NCBI GenBank assembly: GCA_019057865.1
Contig: JAHLWP010000011.1
Location: 32,674 to 96,673, forward strand
DNA from: Promethearchaeota archaeon
GTDB lineage: Archaea; Asgardarchaeota; Lokiarchaeia; Sigyniarchaeales; SOKP01
DNA: 64,000 nt
Direction: 5' to 3'
The translations under genes were made by a program, and so were the position numbers. Shown in pieces: positions 50,976 to 60,982 of this stretch. A model generated the notes under the pieces. It saw only the letters and a program-made list of their open reading frames with translations. It had not been told where the DNA came from and did not search any database. Position 1 is the first letter of the stretch, and every line of letters begins with the position of its first letter.

Positions 50976-51816
50976 GTGAGGCAAATAATAACCATTCTTA
51001 AAAATCCCAATCAATCTGAAATTGAACATGCAATTGAGTTCAATGCATATGAAGCCATGAAGGCTATGTGTACTATCGATCTCGAAGATATCGAATATGA
51101 AGAGACTGATGAATTCATCAGATACTCGACGGGGATCCCATTTTTTTTAGTTAATGGGGTGGTAGATAGTCACATTCCCTCAGAAGTTGCCATTAAAAAG
51201 ATAAAGGAAAACATCACTTTTTTTGAAAAGAGACAAGTTCCCTTTCTTTGGATGATTGGCCCATCAAGTAGTCCTAAAAATATGGGAGAGTTATTAATCA
51301 AAAGTGGGTTCGTCCTTGACAAACAGCCAGGGATGGCTTACAACCTAAAAATTTTGGGTGCAGAAAGGGAACTTTTAAACAAGGTAGAGATAATAAAGGT
51401 TGAAAATGTTGAAACTTTAAAAGTATGGAATGACATTGTTTTAACTGGTTTTGCATTTCCAAAAGAACTTCTATCTGATTTTTTTTTACAATGCTTTCTC
51501 ATTTATGGTTTTGAACGATACGCCCTCTGCAAGTGCATTCTTAGCATATTATGATGGAAATCCTGTTGCCTCTTCATTAGTATTTTATGAAGCAGGTGTT
51601 GCAGGTATTTATAGTGTTACTACATTAGAAGAAGCACGTGGTAAAGGGATTGGTACTGCGATAACTCTTGCTCCACTAAACGAGGCTAAGAAATTAGGAT
51701 ATGAGATTGCAATTCTTCAATCATCTGATATGGCTTTAAATATGTATAAACACATGGGTTTTAAGGAATACTGCAAAATTGAATGGTTTGTATGGCAACC
51801 CGGTTCAAAAGAATAA
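50976..51816 (+). pseudogene. GNAT acetyltransferase split by a single-base frameshift
   Basis: Removing one T from the T9 run at 51479-51487 fuses the two ORFs. The C-terminal half has the acetyl-CoA motif VTTLEEARGKGIG. Confidence 0.85.
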
Positions 51817-52168: not shown

Positions 52169-53908
52169 TTATTCTTTAACGGTTTCTAAAAGCTCCTCTA
52201 TTTCGGCTTGAATTACTTCGGGATTCTTTGCCTGTTCACCTTGAATCGCAAGTGCCTTCTCTATACGCTCTCGATGGATGGTGTTCATGGCACAAAATGG
52301 AATCTCTAAGACCTTGCTATTATCCGATGGATCTATCACGCCGTAATGGACTAAGCATCTTTTCATTCGCTCCAAATCGAAATTGTAAGCGTCTTGGAAG
52401 TGCATGGCTGAGATCATAAGATTACGGCTGTGCAAAAAGTTTGCCGCTGAATTGTAGTTAGGAGACGCAACTAGGCGGACGAATCCTTGAAGAGTTTTAC
52501 TTGTTAGAATTTTTTCAGGGTTTTTTATAAATTTTAATGCCCCACCAAAGTAATATGCTTTCATCATTTGCCTGTACCCTAGATTTGTTATTTCATCAAC
52601 GAATTTACCTATGGTACTTGCAATTGCTCCGAAATCCTCTAAGTTAATACCCTTCAAGAAACCTGTGGGTTTAGGAATTTCTTTACCTTGAACCATGTCA
52701 TAGACTTTATTAGACCATTTAATTAATCCTTCTGTATCGAAATATTTTTCGATTTGGTCCCATTCACCTTTCTCATTTACAATGCATATAGTACAAAAAC
52801 CACAATCATGATGGCTCGTCATACCAAAGTCAGGCTGGTTATCAAACCACGCTAATAGTCTCGTCATTTTAGCTGTGGTTGCGATTGGGTAGAATTTGCC
52901 TAATGCGTTATTTGTACATTCATTTATGGCATCTTTTAAATCAGAGGTAGTATATCGTATATCCATCAATTCTTCAAAACTAATACGACCACATAGAGCA
53001 ACTGGTTGAAATATTACTCCTGATATAACATCAGTATTGTCTTTAGCATAATTCATAATATTACCAATCTGGTGGTCGTTAACACCTTTGGCAATTACAG
53101 GAACTAGCATAACACCAAAAAATCCAATTTTTCGACAATTTTCAATAACTCTTTTCTTCAATGGCCATAAATTAACACCTCTGATTTTTATCCAAGCCTC
53201 TGGATCATCGGTTGCATCAAATTGGAGATAAATGGCATTCATTCCAGCATCCTTACATTTTTGAAGAAAATCAATAGATTTTGCGAATCTTATACCATTT
53301 GTAGTGACCATTATTTCAGTAAATCCTAATTCTTTCCCTTTACGAATGATGTCAGGTAGATCATCTCTTATTGTTGGTTCTCCACCAGATATTTGGAACA
53401 TGACAGGAGGGACAGGTTTCATGGATCTAAAGTGTTCCATGATCTGAACTACTTGATCATACGTAGGTTGCACTATATATCCTTTAGCACTTGCATTTGC
53501 GAAACAAATAGGGCAAGTTAAATTACAGCGATTAGTTATATCTATAAGACAGATATTTGGAGCACTTAGGTGATTATCACATAGTCCACAATCATAAGGG
53601 CAACCCTTTTTTATTTCTTTAATCCCTGAGGATATATATTCTGGCTTAGTAGAGTTATTTACAGTAGAACCAATATCATCTGTAAATGACATTTGCCATT
53701 TATAATCTTCTGGGTGAATTGAGAGCTTATCTTTGAAATCTCCATGATCTTCGCATGTTTTTCGCATCATCACCCAATTAGTTTCTGAATCAACATAAAT
53801 CTCGGCTGGAATTGGTTGTAAACATTCTGGACATAAGCTAGTAGTTGTTCGAATAATTTCTTCTTCTCTTTGAACTTCTTGAGTTAATCCTTCAGTCATA
53901 AGAATCAA
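52169..53908 (-). CDS. tes: Tetraether lipid synthase (GDGT-MAS), radical SAM
   Basis: TSLCPEC...KTCEDHG, CPYDCGLCDNH, CNLTCPICFA, MHFQDAYNFDLER..RC, IPFCAMN. Confidence 0.9.
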   Translation of the reverse strand: MILMTEGLTQEVQREEEIIRTTTSLCPECLQPIPAEIYVDSETNWVMMRKTCEDHGDFKDKLSIHPEDYKWQMSFTDDIGSTVNNSTKPEYISSGIKEIKKGCPYDCGLCDNHLSAPNICLIDITNRCNLTCPICFANASAKGYIVQPTYDQVVQIMEHFRSMKPVPPVMFQISGGEPTIRDDLPDIIRKGKELGFTEIMVTTNGIRFAKSIDFLQKCKDAGMNAIYLQFDATDDPEAWIKIRGVNLWPLKKRVIENCRKIGFFGVMLVPVIAKGVNDHQIGNIMNYAKDNTDVISGVIFQPVALCGRISFEELMDIRYTTSDLKDAINECTNNALGKFYPIATTAKMTRLLAWFDNQPDFGMTSHHDCGFCTICIVNEKGEWDQIEKYFDTEGLIKWSNKVYDMVQGKEIPKPTGFLKGINLEDFGAIASTIGKFVDEITNLGYRQMMKAYYFGGALKFIKNPEKILTSKTLQGFVRLVASPNYNSAANFLHSRNLMISAMHFQDAYNFDLERMKRCLVHYGVIDPSDNSKVLEIPFCAMNTIHRERIEKALAIQGEQAKNPEVIQAEIEELLETVKE

Positions 53909-54902: not shown

Positions 54903-55124
54903 TTAAATCAAAATTATCTGTTTACATTTTACACAATATTTCCCTTCATTTCTTGCTTCTTTAGCACATTTTAAACAATATTTTGTTTTACATTTAGGAC
55001 AAGAATAGATCTCTCCTTTTATATGACCTTTATGGAAGAGGCAGAAATTATCCATATTTTTAATTTGAATACTGGGGGGTAATACTGGGGGTGGTGGTAT
55101 TTTTTTATCACTCATAATATCCAC
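54903..55124 (-). CDS. Small RING-like zinc-finger protein with Pro-rich N-terminus
   Basis: PPPPVLPP, then CLFH...CPKC....CLKC...CVKC (8 potential Zn ligands). Confidence 0.7.
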   Translation of the reverse strand: MDIMSDKKIPPPPVLPPSIQIKNMDNFCLFHKGHIKGEIYSCPKCKTKYCLKCAKEARNEGKYCVKCKQIILI

Positions 55125-55963: not shown

Positions 55964-56461
55964 ATGTATATAAGAGATAATGCACATCATAATGAAAAGC
56001 AATTTGGATTTGCATTAGAAAAGATAAGTAATAACAATTATGGGTTTCATGCTATTTACTTTGTTGATAGTTTTAGTGGCTCTCTTCTTTTAAGTAAAAG
56101 ATATACTGCTAAATCAAGTCTATTAAGTGATGATCTAATTAGTAATTTTTTAATTGCTCTCAATTTATTTATCAAAGAAATCAATGAAGATAATAATGAA
56201 GAAATTCAAGATATCAATTTTAGAGAGACGAGAATATTATACGAAAGAAGAGGGAGATTGATTGTTATTGCTATTACTAAAAAAACAAATCTTCAAATAG
56301 AAAGAGGTATTTTACGAGAAATTGTTGAAGATTTTTATATGAAATATAAGAATTATATAAATACCTTTAAAGGAATAATATCTCCAGCGCTTCTAAAATA
56401 CAAAGAAAAATTAGAAAGTATGAACTTGAACTCTTTATTTAAGTTAAAAATTAATTTTTAA
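55964..56461 (+). CDS. Longin-like domain protein
   Basis: IYFVDSFSGSLLLSKRY...DLISNFLIALNLFIKE...ILYER...IVIAIT pattern; GGAGG SD. Confidence 0.65.
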   Translation: MYIRDNAHHNEKQFGFALEKISNNNYGFHAIYFVDSFSGSLLLSKRYTAKSSLLSDDLISNFLIALNLFIKEINEDNNEEIQDINFRETRILYERRGRLIVIAITKKTNLQIERGILREIVEDFYMKYKNYINTFKGIISPALLKYKEKLESMNLNSLFKLKINF

Positions 56462-56546: not shown

Positions 56547-57938
56547 CTATTCCTCTTCTTCTTCTTGACTTTTTTTAATTTTTCCTACCTTATCTTCAAA
56601 TTTTTCAACAATATCTCTAGCTTCTGTTTTTATTTCAATCTTGCGAGTGTCTAGTTCGCGTTGTTTTTCTATGCGTTTAGCATGCTTTTCCACAGTATCA
56701 AAGATTTTTTTTCTTGTGACTTCTATATCAGGTTTTAACTCTTTCATCTTTGCATCACTTTCCTTCTGACGGTCTATCATAAAGGCTTTTTCACCAACAG
56801 ATTTTTCTATCTTCTCGGCCGTCCCCTCTATATCAGGGTGTATTTCTTTTAATTGAGCAGCACTATCTTTTTGACGACTGATTATAAAGCTTTTTTCTTC
56901 AATTGATTTTTCTATCTTCTCGGCAACTCCCACTATATCTGGACGTATTTCTCTTAGTTGAGCAACACTATCTTTTTGTCGGTTAATCATAAAAGCCTTA
57001 TCCTTAATTGATTTCTCAATTTTTTCTGTCACACCTTCTATATCAGGTCTTAACTCTTTTCTTTGTGCAATACTCTCCTTCTGGCGATCAATTATAAAAA
57101 CTTTTTCTCCAATAGTTTTCTCAATTTTTTCTGCTACACTTTCTATATCAGGTTTTAGCTCTTTTCTTTTTGCAAGACTTTCTTTCTGGAGATCTATCAT
57201 AAAAGCTTTTTCTCCAATAATTTTCTCAATTCTTTCTGCTGTACCTTTTATATCAGGTTTTAACTCTTTCATCTTTGCAGCACTTTCCTTCTGGCGATCT
57301 ATCATAAAAGCCTTATCCTTAATTATTTTCTCAATTCTTTCTGCTGTACCTTCTATATCAGGTTTTAACTCTTTCATCTTTGCAGCACTTTCTTTCTGAC
57401 GATCTATTATAAAAGCCTTTTCTCCAATCGATTTCTCTATCTTTTCACCAGTTCCTTTAATATCGGGATGTAATTCCTTTAATTGAGTCGCACTTTCCTT
57501 TTGTCGATCTATTATAAAAGCCTTTTCTCCAATCGATTTCTCGATTTTTTCACCTGTTCCTTTAATATCTAGGTGTAATTCCTTTAATTGCGTAGTACTT
57601 TCCTTCTGTCGTTCAATAATAAAAGCTTTTTCACCAACGGATTTTTCAATTTTTTTAGCTACTCCTTCAATATCTGTTTTTATTTCTAATCGTTCAACAT
57701 CTTTTTCTCTCTTCTTTTCAATTATAAAAGCTTTTTCCTCAATCAAATCCATAATAAGTTCTTTACTTTCTTCGAAGGATTTTTTTCTTTTTTCCTCTGT
57801 ATCTTTTAAATAGGCATCTCTCTCTTCCTTTTCTTTCTTATAGAGTTTATCAAAAATTTTCTTTTGTCTTTCTATTTCTTCACTAGTTAAGGGTTTTTCA
57901 TCATCTCCCATTATTCTCACTTTCGCAGAAATAATCAC
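56547..57938 (-). CDS. Charged helical protein with ten tandem 35-aa repeats
   Basis: Consensus KAFIIDRQKESxAxxKELxPDIEGTAEKIEKSIGE. The start is probably the ATG at 57911. Confidence 0.88.
   Translation of the reverse strand: MIISAKVRIMGDDEKPLTSEEIERQKKIFDKLYKKEKEERDAYLKDTEEKRKKSFEESKELIMDLIEEKAFIIEKKREKDVERLEIKTDIEGVAKKIEKSVGEKAFIIERQKESTTQLKELHLDIKGTGEKIEKSIGEKAFIIDRQKESATQLKELHPDIKGTGEKIEKSIGEKAFIIDRQKESAAKMKELKPDIEGTAERIEKIIKDKAFMIDRQKESAAKMKELKPDIKGTAERIEKIIGEKAFMIDLQKESLAKRKELKPDIESVAEKIEKTIGEKVFIIDRQKESIAQRKELRPDIEGVTEKIEKSIKDKAFMINRQKDSVAQLREIRPDIVGVAEKIEKSIEEKSFIISRQKDSAAQLKEIHPDIEGTAEKIEKSVGEKAFMIDRQKESDAKMKELKPDIEVTRKKIFDTVEKHAKRIEKQRELDTRKIEIKTEARDIVEKFEDKVGKIKKSQEEEEE
56685..57734 (-). 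repeat. 105-bp coding tandem repeat x10 (plus one degenerate unit)
   Basis: Ungapped 35-codon periodicity. Confidence 0.92.
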
Positions 57939-58053: not shown

Positions 58054-58803
58054 TTACTTGATTGGGATTGGTTCCAATGAATCATCTGAAGTTAAAATTG
58101 TAAGGCTTATTAAGGCTAGCTTCATTGAAAGCATTTCCAAAATTTCCATTTGTAATCTTTTGTAAATTTCATTATTTTGATTTATATTATATTTAAAAAC
58201 TAAGCTATCAAATTCATGTTTTAAGTGTTCTTTTACTTCTTCTTGGTTATCTAAGTTAATATTCCGAGATCTTAGCCAATTATCGATTTGTTCTTTTATT
58301 TGAATTTCTGCTTCATTATCTAAAATATACTTAACTTCAGTTTCTTTGATTTTATCTAGATGATCGAGATATTCTCGATCTTGATACATTGGTTTAAGGA
58401 GTAATCCAAGATTAATGATTAAAGGTTGAACTTGAAGTTTTTCTAATGAATCTGATAAAAATCTTAAAATTTTTCTTTTATGGGTTAGTTGTGAATAGTC
58501 AATATATTCTTGTACAAAGTGCAAAATTGAATTTTTAATTAATAATTCTTCAAAATCCTTCATTGAATCTGTTGTAAATTCAATGGTATTATTAATACAA
58601 TTGTAAAGAGAATTCATAAATGGTCTAATCTCTTTAAACATTGAAAAGTAATTAATAAAACTTAAAATATCAGCTAAAAGTTCCAGTTTATTCTCATCTG
58701 GCTCTGATTTAAAATAAAGGTTAATAGTTTTCTCTAAATCAAAGTTTTCATCTGAAATTGATAAGAATTGTTTTATGTCAGAATAAACTGAACTTAAGTT
58801 CAC
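58054..58803 (-). CDS. Hypothetical alpha-helical protein
   Basis: Long ORF with no recognised motif. Confidence 0.7.
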   Translation of the reverse strand: MNLSSVYSDIKQFLSISDENFDLEKTINLYFKSEPDENKLELLADILSFINYFSMFKEIRPFMNSLYNCINNTIEFTTDSMKDFEELLIKNSILHFVQEYIDYSQLTHKRKILRFLSDSLEKLQVQPLIINLGLLLKPMYQDREYLDHLDKIKETEVKYILDNEAEIQIKEQIDNWLRSRNINLDNQEEVKEHLKHEFDSLVFKYNINQNNEIYKRLQMEILEMLSMKLALISLTILTSDDSLEPIPIK

Positions 58804-60478: not shown

Positions 60479-60982
60479 TTAAAAGTTTGTATCACTCGTA
60501 GGGGGGTCTGAATCTCCTCTATATTTTTCATGTAATTGTATAAAGATATCATTGAAGCTATTTTTTCTCTGTAGCCAATGATCTTTATCCTCGTTTTTAT
60601 TCCTTACTAATAGGAGCCTCCATTGTGCTAACCTATAATTACCCTTTCTATCTAAAAGTAATTTTCCCTTTCTATCTAAAAGTAATTTTCCCTTTTCTCG
60701 TTTTTTCACCTTTATTATTACCTTACCGGGCTTTTTAGGAAGTATCTCATAAAGATCGTGCCATCTTATCCACATATTAGTTCCTATTCTCCATTTCCAT
60801 GACCCTGGAGTCCATCTAATTCTCCATGCGAAACCTCTATCGGTGGCTAATAACACACCATTATCGTCGTTACGTTTACATTTTGAAGTAAGGATTAGAT
60901 CCCCTACATCGTACATGCTCTTAATTTTTTCAAAAAACGTTTTTCTATCAGGTGACATTTCCCATCCTGGCAATATGGGCAT
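60479..60982 (-). CDS. Hypothetical basic, Trp-rich protein (possible PH-like fold)
   Basis: GVLLATDRGFAW...IRWHDL; GAGGTG SD upstream. Confidence 0.7.
   Translation of the reverse strand: MPILPGWEMSPDRKTFFEKIKSMYDVGDLILTSKCKRNDDNGVLLATDRGFAWRIRWTPGSWKWRIGTNMWIRWHDLYEILPKKPGKVIIKVKKREKGKLLLDRKGKLLLDRKGNYRLAQWRLLLVRNKNEDKDHWLQRKNSFNDIFIQLHEKYRGDSDPPTSDTNF
60642..60695. repeat. Perfect 24-bp in-frame tandem duplication
   Basis: CCCTTTCTATCTAAAAGTAATTTT x2, encoding KGKLLLDR x2. Confidence 0.95.

What the first reader, a model, noticed from the sequence alone, without database searches (positions are those of the whole stretch)
56547..57938. Ten exact-period 35-aa repeats: candidate nebulin-like filament ruler in an actin-bearing archaeon
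Seen: ungapped 35-aa units, each with one Pro (PDI) followed by a long amphipathic helix and a conserved (G/K)(E/D)KAF motif. There is no TM or signal, so it is cytoplasmic. Known: nebulin modules are ~35 aa, bind one actin protomer each, and have a P(D/E)-hydrophobic motif about 13 residues before SDxxY. Here PDI lies 14 residues before GEKAF. Lokiarchaeia have actin filaments. Inference: a side-binding ruler or stabiliser for Lokiactin or another polymer. The resemblance is by eye and may be convergent or coincidental (35 is also five heptads).
Basis: partly seen in the sequence, partly recalled or inferred. Interest (0 to 1): 0.7.

Follow-up and report, generated by a model that had tools for sequence, protein, structure and literature searches.

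The report
Asgard 35-residue helical repeat protein
This is a real, unnamed gene of one branch of Loki-type Asgard archaea. It encodes a string of about eleven interchangeable 35-residue helices, grown from a small older Asgard protein; it resembles the muscle protein nebulin in layout but not in sequence, and what it binds, actin or anything else, is still untested.

Summary
Window 56547-57911(-) encodes about 454 aa: a conserved head, ten units of exactly 35 aa and one degenerate unit. The gene is single-copy, syntenic and under protein-level selection. It occurs in 109 of 134 other genomes of this lokiarchaeal family, with genus-typical counts of 8-12 units; 731 of 742 spacings are exactly 35. 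More distant relatives use 32 or 37. Jordarchaeia (11 of 11 genomes, e.g. Freyarchaeum WXG41426.1) carry only the 65-aa head, so the array probably arose by repeating the head's last motif. It is not a nebulin: no SDxxY in 515 units, no PF00880 match, and Lokiactin has Met where nebulin's Tyr contacts actin K68. It was not found in L. ossiferum, the organism in which Lokiactin filaments were seen. AlphaFold and covariation point weakly to one long helix per unit with no self-packing. Best reading: an extended, multivalent binder of a repeated protein partner (about 0.5). Actin is the best named candidate, on spacing alone (about 0.2); a second FtsZ is a weaker one. This scan has already met this family in at least 17 other genomes, with the same verdict.

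The parts
56547..57911 (-). Repeat-protein gene, about 454 aa from ATG 57911 (open frame extends to GTG 57938, 463 aa)
   Evidence: orthologue starts; orthologues in 109 of 134 family genomes
57711..57911 (-). Ancestral head module (aa 10-76): short Pro-containing leader, then a ~50-residue helix with an 11-residue-type stripe (invariant Arg, two near-invariant Lys), ending in the first I..xI.EKAF motif. Stands alone as a 65-77-aa protein in Jordarchaeia
57678..57782 (-). Unit 1 (aa 53-87), divergent, overlaps the head
56733..57677 (-). Units 2-10 (aa 88-402): nine interchangeable 35-aa / 105-bp units; near-invariant I10, E16, K17, A18, F19, E26
56628..56732 (-). Unit 11 (aa 403-437), degenerate, position-specific end unit lacking the Phe
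56550..56627 (-). C-terminal half-unit and charged tail (aa 438-463)
58054..58803 (-). Conserved upstream neighbour, 249-aa helical protein of no known family; missing from some orthologous loci, so not an obligatory partner
55964..56461 (+). Conserved convergent neighbour, 165 aa, faint longin-domain match (E 0.096)
52169..53908 (-). Tes-like radical SAM gene (432 bits, cut-off 450). Lies near the gene both in this family and in Jordarchaeaceae; supports orthology, not shown to share function

Best explanation
The protein is an extended string of about eleven equivalent helical binding modules with no fold of its own. Each module is a ~32-residue helix with a short break at the H/K-P-D linker. 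It carries a conserved ~20-residue core (I..xI.EKAF..E..E) that docks on one copy of a partner protein. The core comes from the end of a 65-aa single-helix protein still found alone in Jordarchaeia; one Lokiarchaeia lineage amplified it in tandem. This turns a one-site binder into a multivalent one that lies along consecutive subunits of a polymer or other periodic assembly and stabilises or organises a stretch of about 50-60 nm. Shown: the gene, the period, interchangeability of units, the distribution, and homology to the 65-aa protein. Inferred: direction of evolution (no tree was built), the extended helix, binding to a repeated partner, and stabilisation. The partner is unidentified; Lokiactin fits on spacing only.
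For: 731 of 742 spacings in the family are exactly 35; the only recurring indel is -3, in the polar half. Internal units have no positional identity (0.58 same position, 0.57 other position between genomes; 0.67 within a genome), yet counts stay modal per genus: 11, 12, 8, 9. The most conserved residues include exposed polar ones and a Phe opposite the hydrophobic stripe, which suggests an external partner. The core survives while linkers change to give periods of 32 and 37 in distant members. AlphaFold gives one helix per unit, pTM 0.23-0.30. Top covariation pairs are at separations 1-4 and 7-8, with no hairpin ladder. A conserved 65-aa single helix cannot fold alone and needs a partner or itself (inference). 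Net charge per unit is about zero, which argues against nucleic acid.
Against: No partner is identified. The models are low-confidence (pLDDT 60-71) and the covariation depth is small (effective 176), so self-association is not excluded; contacts between copies would be invisible in monomer models. Neighbouring genes are not cytoskeletal and are not kept in distant members. Periods of 32-37 weaken the case for one fixed lattice spacing. A profile built from the five Jordarchaeia sequences alone did not find the gene back.
Confidence: 0.5

Rival explanations
1. A special case of the best explanation, and the first reader's idea: the partner is the Lokiactin filament, one unit per protomer along a long-pitch strand. 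This would be a convergent nebulin-like stabiliser.
For: Lokiactin rise is 27.9 A per subunit (PMC9834061), so 55.8 A per strand step; a 32-residue helix plus a 3-residue break spans about 55-58 A (calculation). Nebulin units are 31-38 aa and start their helix at a Pro (10.1101/2021.10.06.463400). All five genomes checked for actin, three of them carriers, and the window's own genome have it.
Against: No SDxxY, no PF00880 match. The K68 position of actin is Met or Val. The gene was not found in L. ossiferum or Harpocratesius, nor in sampled Heimdall-, Thor- or Odin-type genomes. It is never next to an actin gene in the loci examined.
Confidence: 0.2
2. A self-associating rod or fibre. The Ile stripe of each unit packs against another copy (right-handed or irregular coiled coil, or a helical bundle), giving a spacer or scaffold whose length is set by the unit count.
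For: Near-invariant I10 with I3, I14 and I21 on one face; the head has a 96-98 degree hydrophobic period, typical of 11-residue right-handed coiled coils. The best PDB sequence matches are designed coiled-coil bundles (E 0.002-0.007). The -3 indel is the size of a stammer.
Against: Heptad core positions are held by conserved K17, Q24 and R31; there is a Pro every 35 residues; the second half of each unit is polar; +2 insertions (period 37) do not keep a coiled-coil register.
Confidence: 0.25
3. Another special case of the best explanation: the partner is the second FtsZ (probably the FtsZ1 type), and the protein is a Z-ring stabiliser or bundler.
For: Every carrier tested that is more than 85% complete has two FtsZ genes. 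About 18 Lokiarchaeia genomes with only one FtsZ all lack the gene. In Jordarchaeaceae the 65-aa gene lies beside a ribbon-helix-helix gene that resembles CdrS by eye.
Against: The pattern is only nested. Two genera of the same family, three other Loki genomes and the other Asgard classes sampled have two or more FtsZ/tubulin genes but no match. Few independent events underlie it. The FtsZ repeat of about 43 A (established knowledge) fits 35 aa less well.
Confidence: 0.1
4. An apolipoprotein-like membrane or lipid binder made of Pro-punctuated amphipathic helices, linked to tetraether lipid synthesis.
For: Weak profile match to ApoA-IV (E 0.028). A Tes-like gene is nearby in two Asgard classes.
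Against: Hydrophobic moment only 0.17-0.31 and mean hydrophobicity at most 0.2; no 11/22-mer period; the Tes link is lost in other carriers.
Confidence: 0.08
5. A self-contained alpha-solenoid (PPR- or TPR-like).
For: 35 aa is the PPR period. Faint matches to designed PPR proteins, E 0.5-4. End units are position-specific, like capping repeats.
Against: No mid-unit turn is predicted, no hairpin covariation, no PPR/TPR family among the Pfam matches listed, and unit number drops to 1 in Jordarchaeia.
Confidence: 0.08

Closest known systems
Nebulin simple repeat (PF00880; nebulin, nebulette, LASP, N-RAP)
   Same: About 35-aa tandem units; a helix starting at a Pro-acidic-hydrophobic motif; one conserved aromatic per unit; highly charged; no globular core; length tolerance in the low-to-high 30s.
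   Different: No SDxxYK, Phe instead of the invariant Tyr, no HMM match, no 7-unit super-repeat, 1-14 units rather than more than 150, a longer helix and shorter loop, and the actin K68 contact is not kept in Lokiactin. An origin from a 65-aa Asgard protein points to independent ancestry.
Beta-thymosin / WH2 single and multi-repeat proteins (thymosin beta4, ciboulot)
   Same: The same evolutionary pattern: a small single-module helical protein in one lineage, tandem copies in another, with an amphipathic helix followed by a short conserved motif.
   Different: No LKKT/V motif (8 of 515 units match even loosely) and no Pfam match. Units are predicted to be fully helical.
Stathmin-like domain, GvpC
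   Same: Long charged helices with ~33-35-aa internal repeats that lie along polymer subunits (own knowledge).
   Different: No sequence match. The genome has two FtsZ genes and no third tubulin-family gene, and no GvpA was found (control silent).
Unnamed Promethearchaeota family (hypothetical proteins such as MHA1148452.1, MDO8111383.1, WXG41426.1)
   Same: This protein is a member. A 55-member, 356-aa archaeal ESM Atlas cluster, commonest Promethearchaeota, may be the same family (not verified).
   Different: No name, Pfam family or paper was found.

Membership tests
Nebulin repeat | Tandem units of 31-38 aa | tested here: met
   35 in 731 of 742 spacings; 32 and 37 occur
Nebulin repeat | SDxxY(K) motif with fully conserved Tyr | tested here: not met
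   0 of 515 units; only 40 contain any Tyr; definition
Nebulin repeat | Match to PF00880 | tested here: not met
   No match in own genome at E<=10; none at the family loci of five more carriers; not among the listed families for 110 fragments
Nebulin repeat | Two helices with a kink, then a loop | tested here: inconclusive
   AlphaFold gives one ~32-residue helix and a 3-residue break, pLDDT 60
Nebulin repeat | Seven-unit super-repeat | tested here: not met
   The unit identity matrix is flat or decays with distance; with 11 units the test has limited power
Nebulin repeat | Actin K68 available for the cation-pi contact with the Tyr | tested here: not met
   Met in Lokiactins, Val in Jordarchaeia actins
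Nebulin repeat | Binds F-actin, one unit per protomer | not testable with these tools
   Needs an experiment
Beta-thymosin/WH2 | Amphipathic helix followed by LKK(T/V) | tested here: not met
   8 of 515 units match a loose pattern; no Pfam match
PPR/TPR solenoid | Helix-turn-helix unit with inter-helix contacts | tested here: inconclusive
   Not seen in the model or in covariation, but both are weak
PPR/TPR solenoid | Profile match | tested here: not met
   only E 0.5-4 to designed PPR proteins
Exchangeable apolipoprotein | 11/22-mer repeats with a broad hydrophobic face | tested here: not met
   Period 35, hydrophobic moment 0.17-0.31
GvpC | Gas vesicle gene gvpA in the genome | tested here: inconclusive
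   None in 5 genomes, but no control genome matched either
A-type ATPase subunit H/G (for the 65-aa head) | Stands in for subunit H of the ATPase operon | tested here: not met
   Own genome and Freyarchaeum each have a ~100-112-aa subunit-H-like gene next to the ATPase genes; no V-ATPase G match

The most novel reading that the evidence does not exclude
An Asgard-born family of actin-filament binders: a thymosin-sized single helix in Jordarchaeia that one Lokiarchaeia lineage expanded into a mini-nebulin lining Lokiactin one module per protomer. It would be the first prokaryotic filament side-stabiliser of this design, convergent with nebulin, and a third class of Asgard actin regulator beside profilins and gelsolins.
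Probability: 0.2. Interest if true: 0.8.

Novelty: new variant of a known kind. Interest (0 to 1): 0.45.

Why it matters
Known Asgard actin regulators are mainly profilins and gelsolins (PMC13716822); I found no report of a side-binding stabiliser. A conserved, unnamed, Asgard-only family with a natural one-module form and 3- to 14-module forms is an easy series to test: small, soluble, and with valency built in. If it binds Lokiactin or FtsZ, it would show how a filament stabiliser can arise by motif amplification. If it only self-associates, it is a lineage-specific scaffold of modest interest. It was not found in the sampled lineages closest to eukaryotes, so it is unlikely to be the ancestor of nebulin.

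Tried and rejected
ESM Atlas feature searches were blank. Foldseek on PDB found nothing. VIA-align gave only generic long helices, Z at most 6.6 with rmsd mostly above 20 A; tropomyosin at rank 1 is tied with dozens of unrelated coiled coils and means nothing. Pfam and NCBIfam hits (sulphotransferase, UBA, thioredoxin, SMC) are artefacts of summing weak scores over repeats or of composition. Non-Asgard hits in the 1.8-billion-protein search (a TPR protein, an OmpA-like protein, a repeat junk frame) lack the motif. A by-eye nebulin-like 'SD' in Sigynarchaeota members got no Pfam support. Rejected: ATPase subunit H substitute. No GvpA was found, but the control was silent. No paralogue in the genome. 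The sigma-70 promoter scan was below chance. A profile-profile comparison with nebulin was not run because no tool supplied nebulin sequences. No phylogenetic tree was built.

Full report
Observation. The - strand ORF at 56547-57938 is intact. The likely start is ATG 57911, matching called orthologues. Ten K[AVS]F anchors are spaced exactly 35 aa apart; lag-35 identity is 0.58 against at most 0.18 in 1000 shuffles, and TRF finds the 105-bp array. An eleventh, degenerate unit and a charged tail follow. Differences between units concentrate at third codon positions, so this is a selected protein repeat, not a DNA repeat read by chance. Eight units begin with Pro. Only the first half of a unit is amphipathic, and weakly.

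Host and distribution. The genome is lokiarchaeal, with four actin homologues and two FtsZ genes. The gene is single-copy. It is found in 109 of 134 other genomes of the family, in a conserved gene block. Two genera of the family gave no match (0/7 and 0/2). In the rest of the order it was found in 3 genomes; the closed genomes of L. ossiferum, Harpocratesius repetitus and one more member of that family gave no match with any profile tried. A search of 1.8 billion representatives returned true members only from Promethearchaeota, where named, all 'hypothetical'. No Pfam, NCBIfam, PDB or literature description was found.

Origin. A profile of the N-terminal region found standalone 65-77-aa proteins in all 11 genomes of two families of another class. 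One is WXG41426.1 of Ca. Freyarchaeum deiterrae, so the class is Jordarchaeia. They align without gaps to the head and end at the first EKA motif. A profile from Loki rows only scores them 37-50 bits, against at most 10.7 for 2000 shuffles and about 0 when reversed; the narrow reverse profile failed to find the gene. In Jordarchaeaceae the small gene lies close to the same Tes-like radical SAM gene that neighbours it here. The head's last 22 positions match the repeat core (hhalign probability 94.5). The simplest reading is that the array arose by amplifying the end of an older single-helix protein; no tree was built, so the direction is inferred. Sampled Heimdall-, Thor-, Odin- and Hel-type genomes gave no convincing match.

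Behaviour of the array. Within the family 731 of 742 spacings are 35 and nine are 32, with three residues lost from the polar half. Distant members use 32 or 37 by changing the linker while keeping the core. Internal units have no positional identity between genomes (0.58 same position, 0.57 other) and are more alike within a genome (0.67), which indicates turnover. Even so, counts are modal per genus: 11 (19 of 28; most of the seven 10s have the same length, with the degenerate unit under threshold), 12 (18 of 30), 8 and 9. Outliers run from 4 to 14, and some short ones may be assembly errors. Units are therefore equivalent, their length is strictly kept, and their number is loosely kept.

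Structure. AlphaFold predicts long helices for the whole protein (pTM 0.30). For a 110-sequence four-unit alignment it predicts one ~32-residue helix per unit, broken at the Pro linker (pLDDT 60, pTM 0.23). Covariation on 674 unit pairs (effective 176) shows intra-helix separations and no hairpin pattern. Heptad core positions hold conserved Lys, Gln and Arg; the conserved Phe lies opposite the Ile stripe; net charge is near zero. Fold searches return only generic helices. This argues, weakly, against a PPR-like solenoid, a canonical coiled coil, a lipid belt and a nucleic-acid binder, and for a helix that presents conserved residues to a partner.

Nebulin. Its defining features were taken from 10.1101/2021.10.06.463400. 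Unit length and the Pro-initiated helix match. SDxxY is absent from all 515 units, PF00880 does not hit these loci, no super-repeat is seen, and actin K68, which contacts nebulin's Tyr, is Met in Lokiactin. It is not a member. Whether it works like one is open. The Lokiactin strand step is 55.8 A (PMC9834061), which a unit could span, but L. ossiferum builds dynamic Lokiactin filaments with no detectable copy of this gene, and the Lokiactin co-IP there found a profilin, gelsolins and an ARF GTPase (PMC13716822). Eleven units cover about 60 nm, too little to rule long filaments.

Other partners. All well-assembled carriers tested have a second FtsZ, and about 18 Loki genomes with a single FtsZ lack the gene; but many genomes with two FtsZs lack it too, and few independent events are involved. 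The ATPase-stalk idea was rejected and the gas-vesicle test was inconclusive.

Verdict. A real, undescribed Asgard-only family. Most likely it is an extended multivalent binder of a repeated protein partner (0.5, which includes actin at about 0.2 and FtsZ at about 0.1); otherwise a self-associating rod (0.25). No binding is shown. Other agents of this scan reached the same reading on other genomes; that is repetition, not independent support. Interest 0.45.

Noticed in passing
Lokiarchaeia genomes G257-G263, G267, G269-G271, G273-G277, G279: The second FtsZ is missing from most of the L. ossiferum/Harpocratesius family and from the neighbouring orders, but kept throughout this window's family. 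It may be FtsZ1: its closest Jordarchaeia counterpart, L100, sits by a spt5-like gene.
   Followed up: partly
L103:9593-9769 and L109:9895-10074: A 59-60-aa ribbon-helix-helix gene resembling the cell-division regulator CdrS (by eye) lies between the 65-aa gene and the Tes-like gene in Jordarchaeaceae.
   Followed up: no
L051:1498-2640 (G000:C31): Lokiactins have Met, and Jordarchaeia actins Val, at the position of eukaryotic actin K68.
   Followed up: yes
window 50976-51816: An apparent GNAT acetyltransferase split into two overlapping ORFs (50976-51554 and 51451-51816), probably a frameshift.
   Followed up: no
window 60642-60695: An exact 24-bp tandem duplication inside the 167-aa ORF at 60479-60982, duplicating eight residues.
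   Followed up: no
window 54903-55124: A small conserved protein with a poly-Pro N-terminus and a Cys/His zinc finger (faint IBR match), syntenic across the family.
   Followed up: no
L056:1153-2055 and L057: Sigynarchaeota members switch after three EKAF-type units to a different, Ser-Asp-containing C-terminal repeat; no Pfam match for L056.
   Followed up: partly
L059:415-1056 and L159:3607-4233: The two divergent members with 37- and 32-aa periods both lie next to a metallo-beta-lactamase-fold gene.
   Followed up: no
window 52169-53908: A Tes-like tetraether synthase scoring just under the NCBIfam cut-off (432 against 450), with an inositol-3-phosphate synthase at 47369-48526; the same two genes flank the 65-aa gene in Jordarchaeaceae.
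   Followed up: partly
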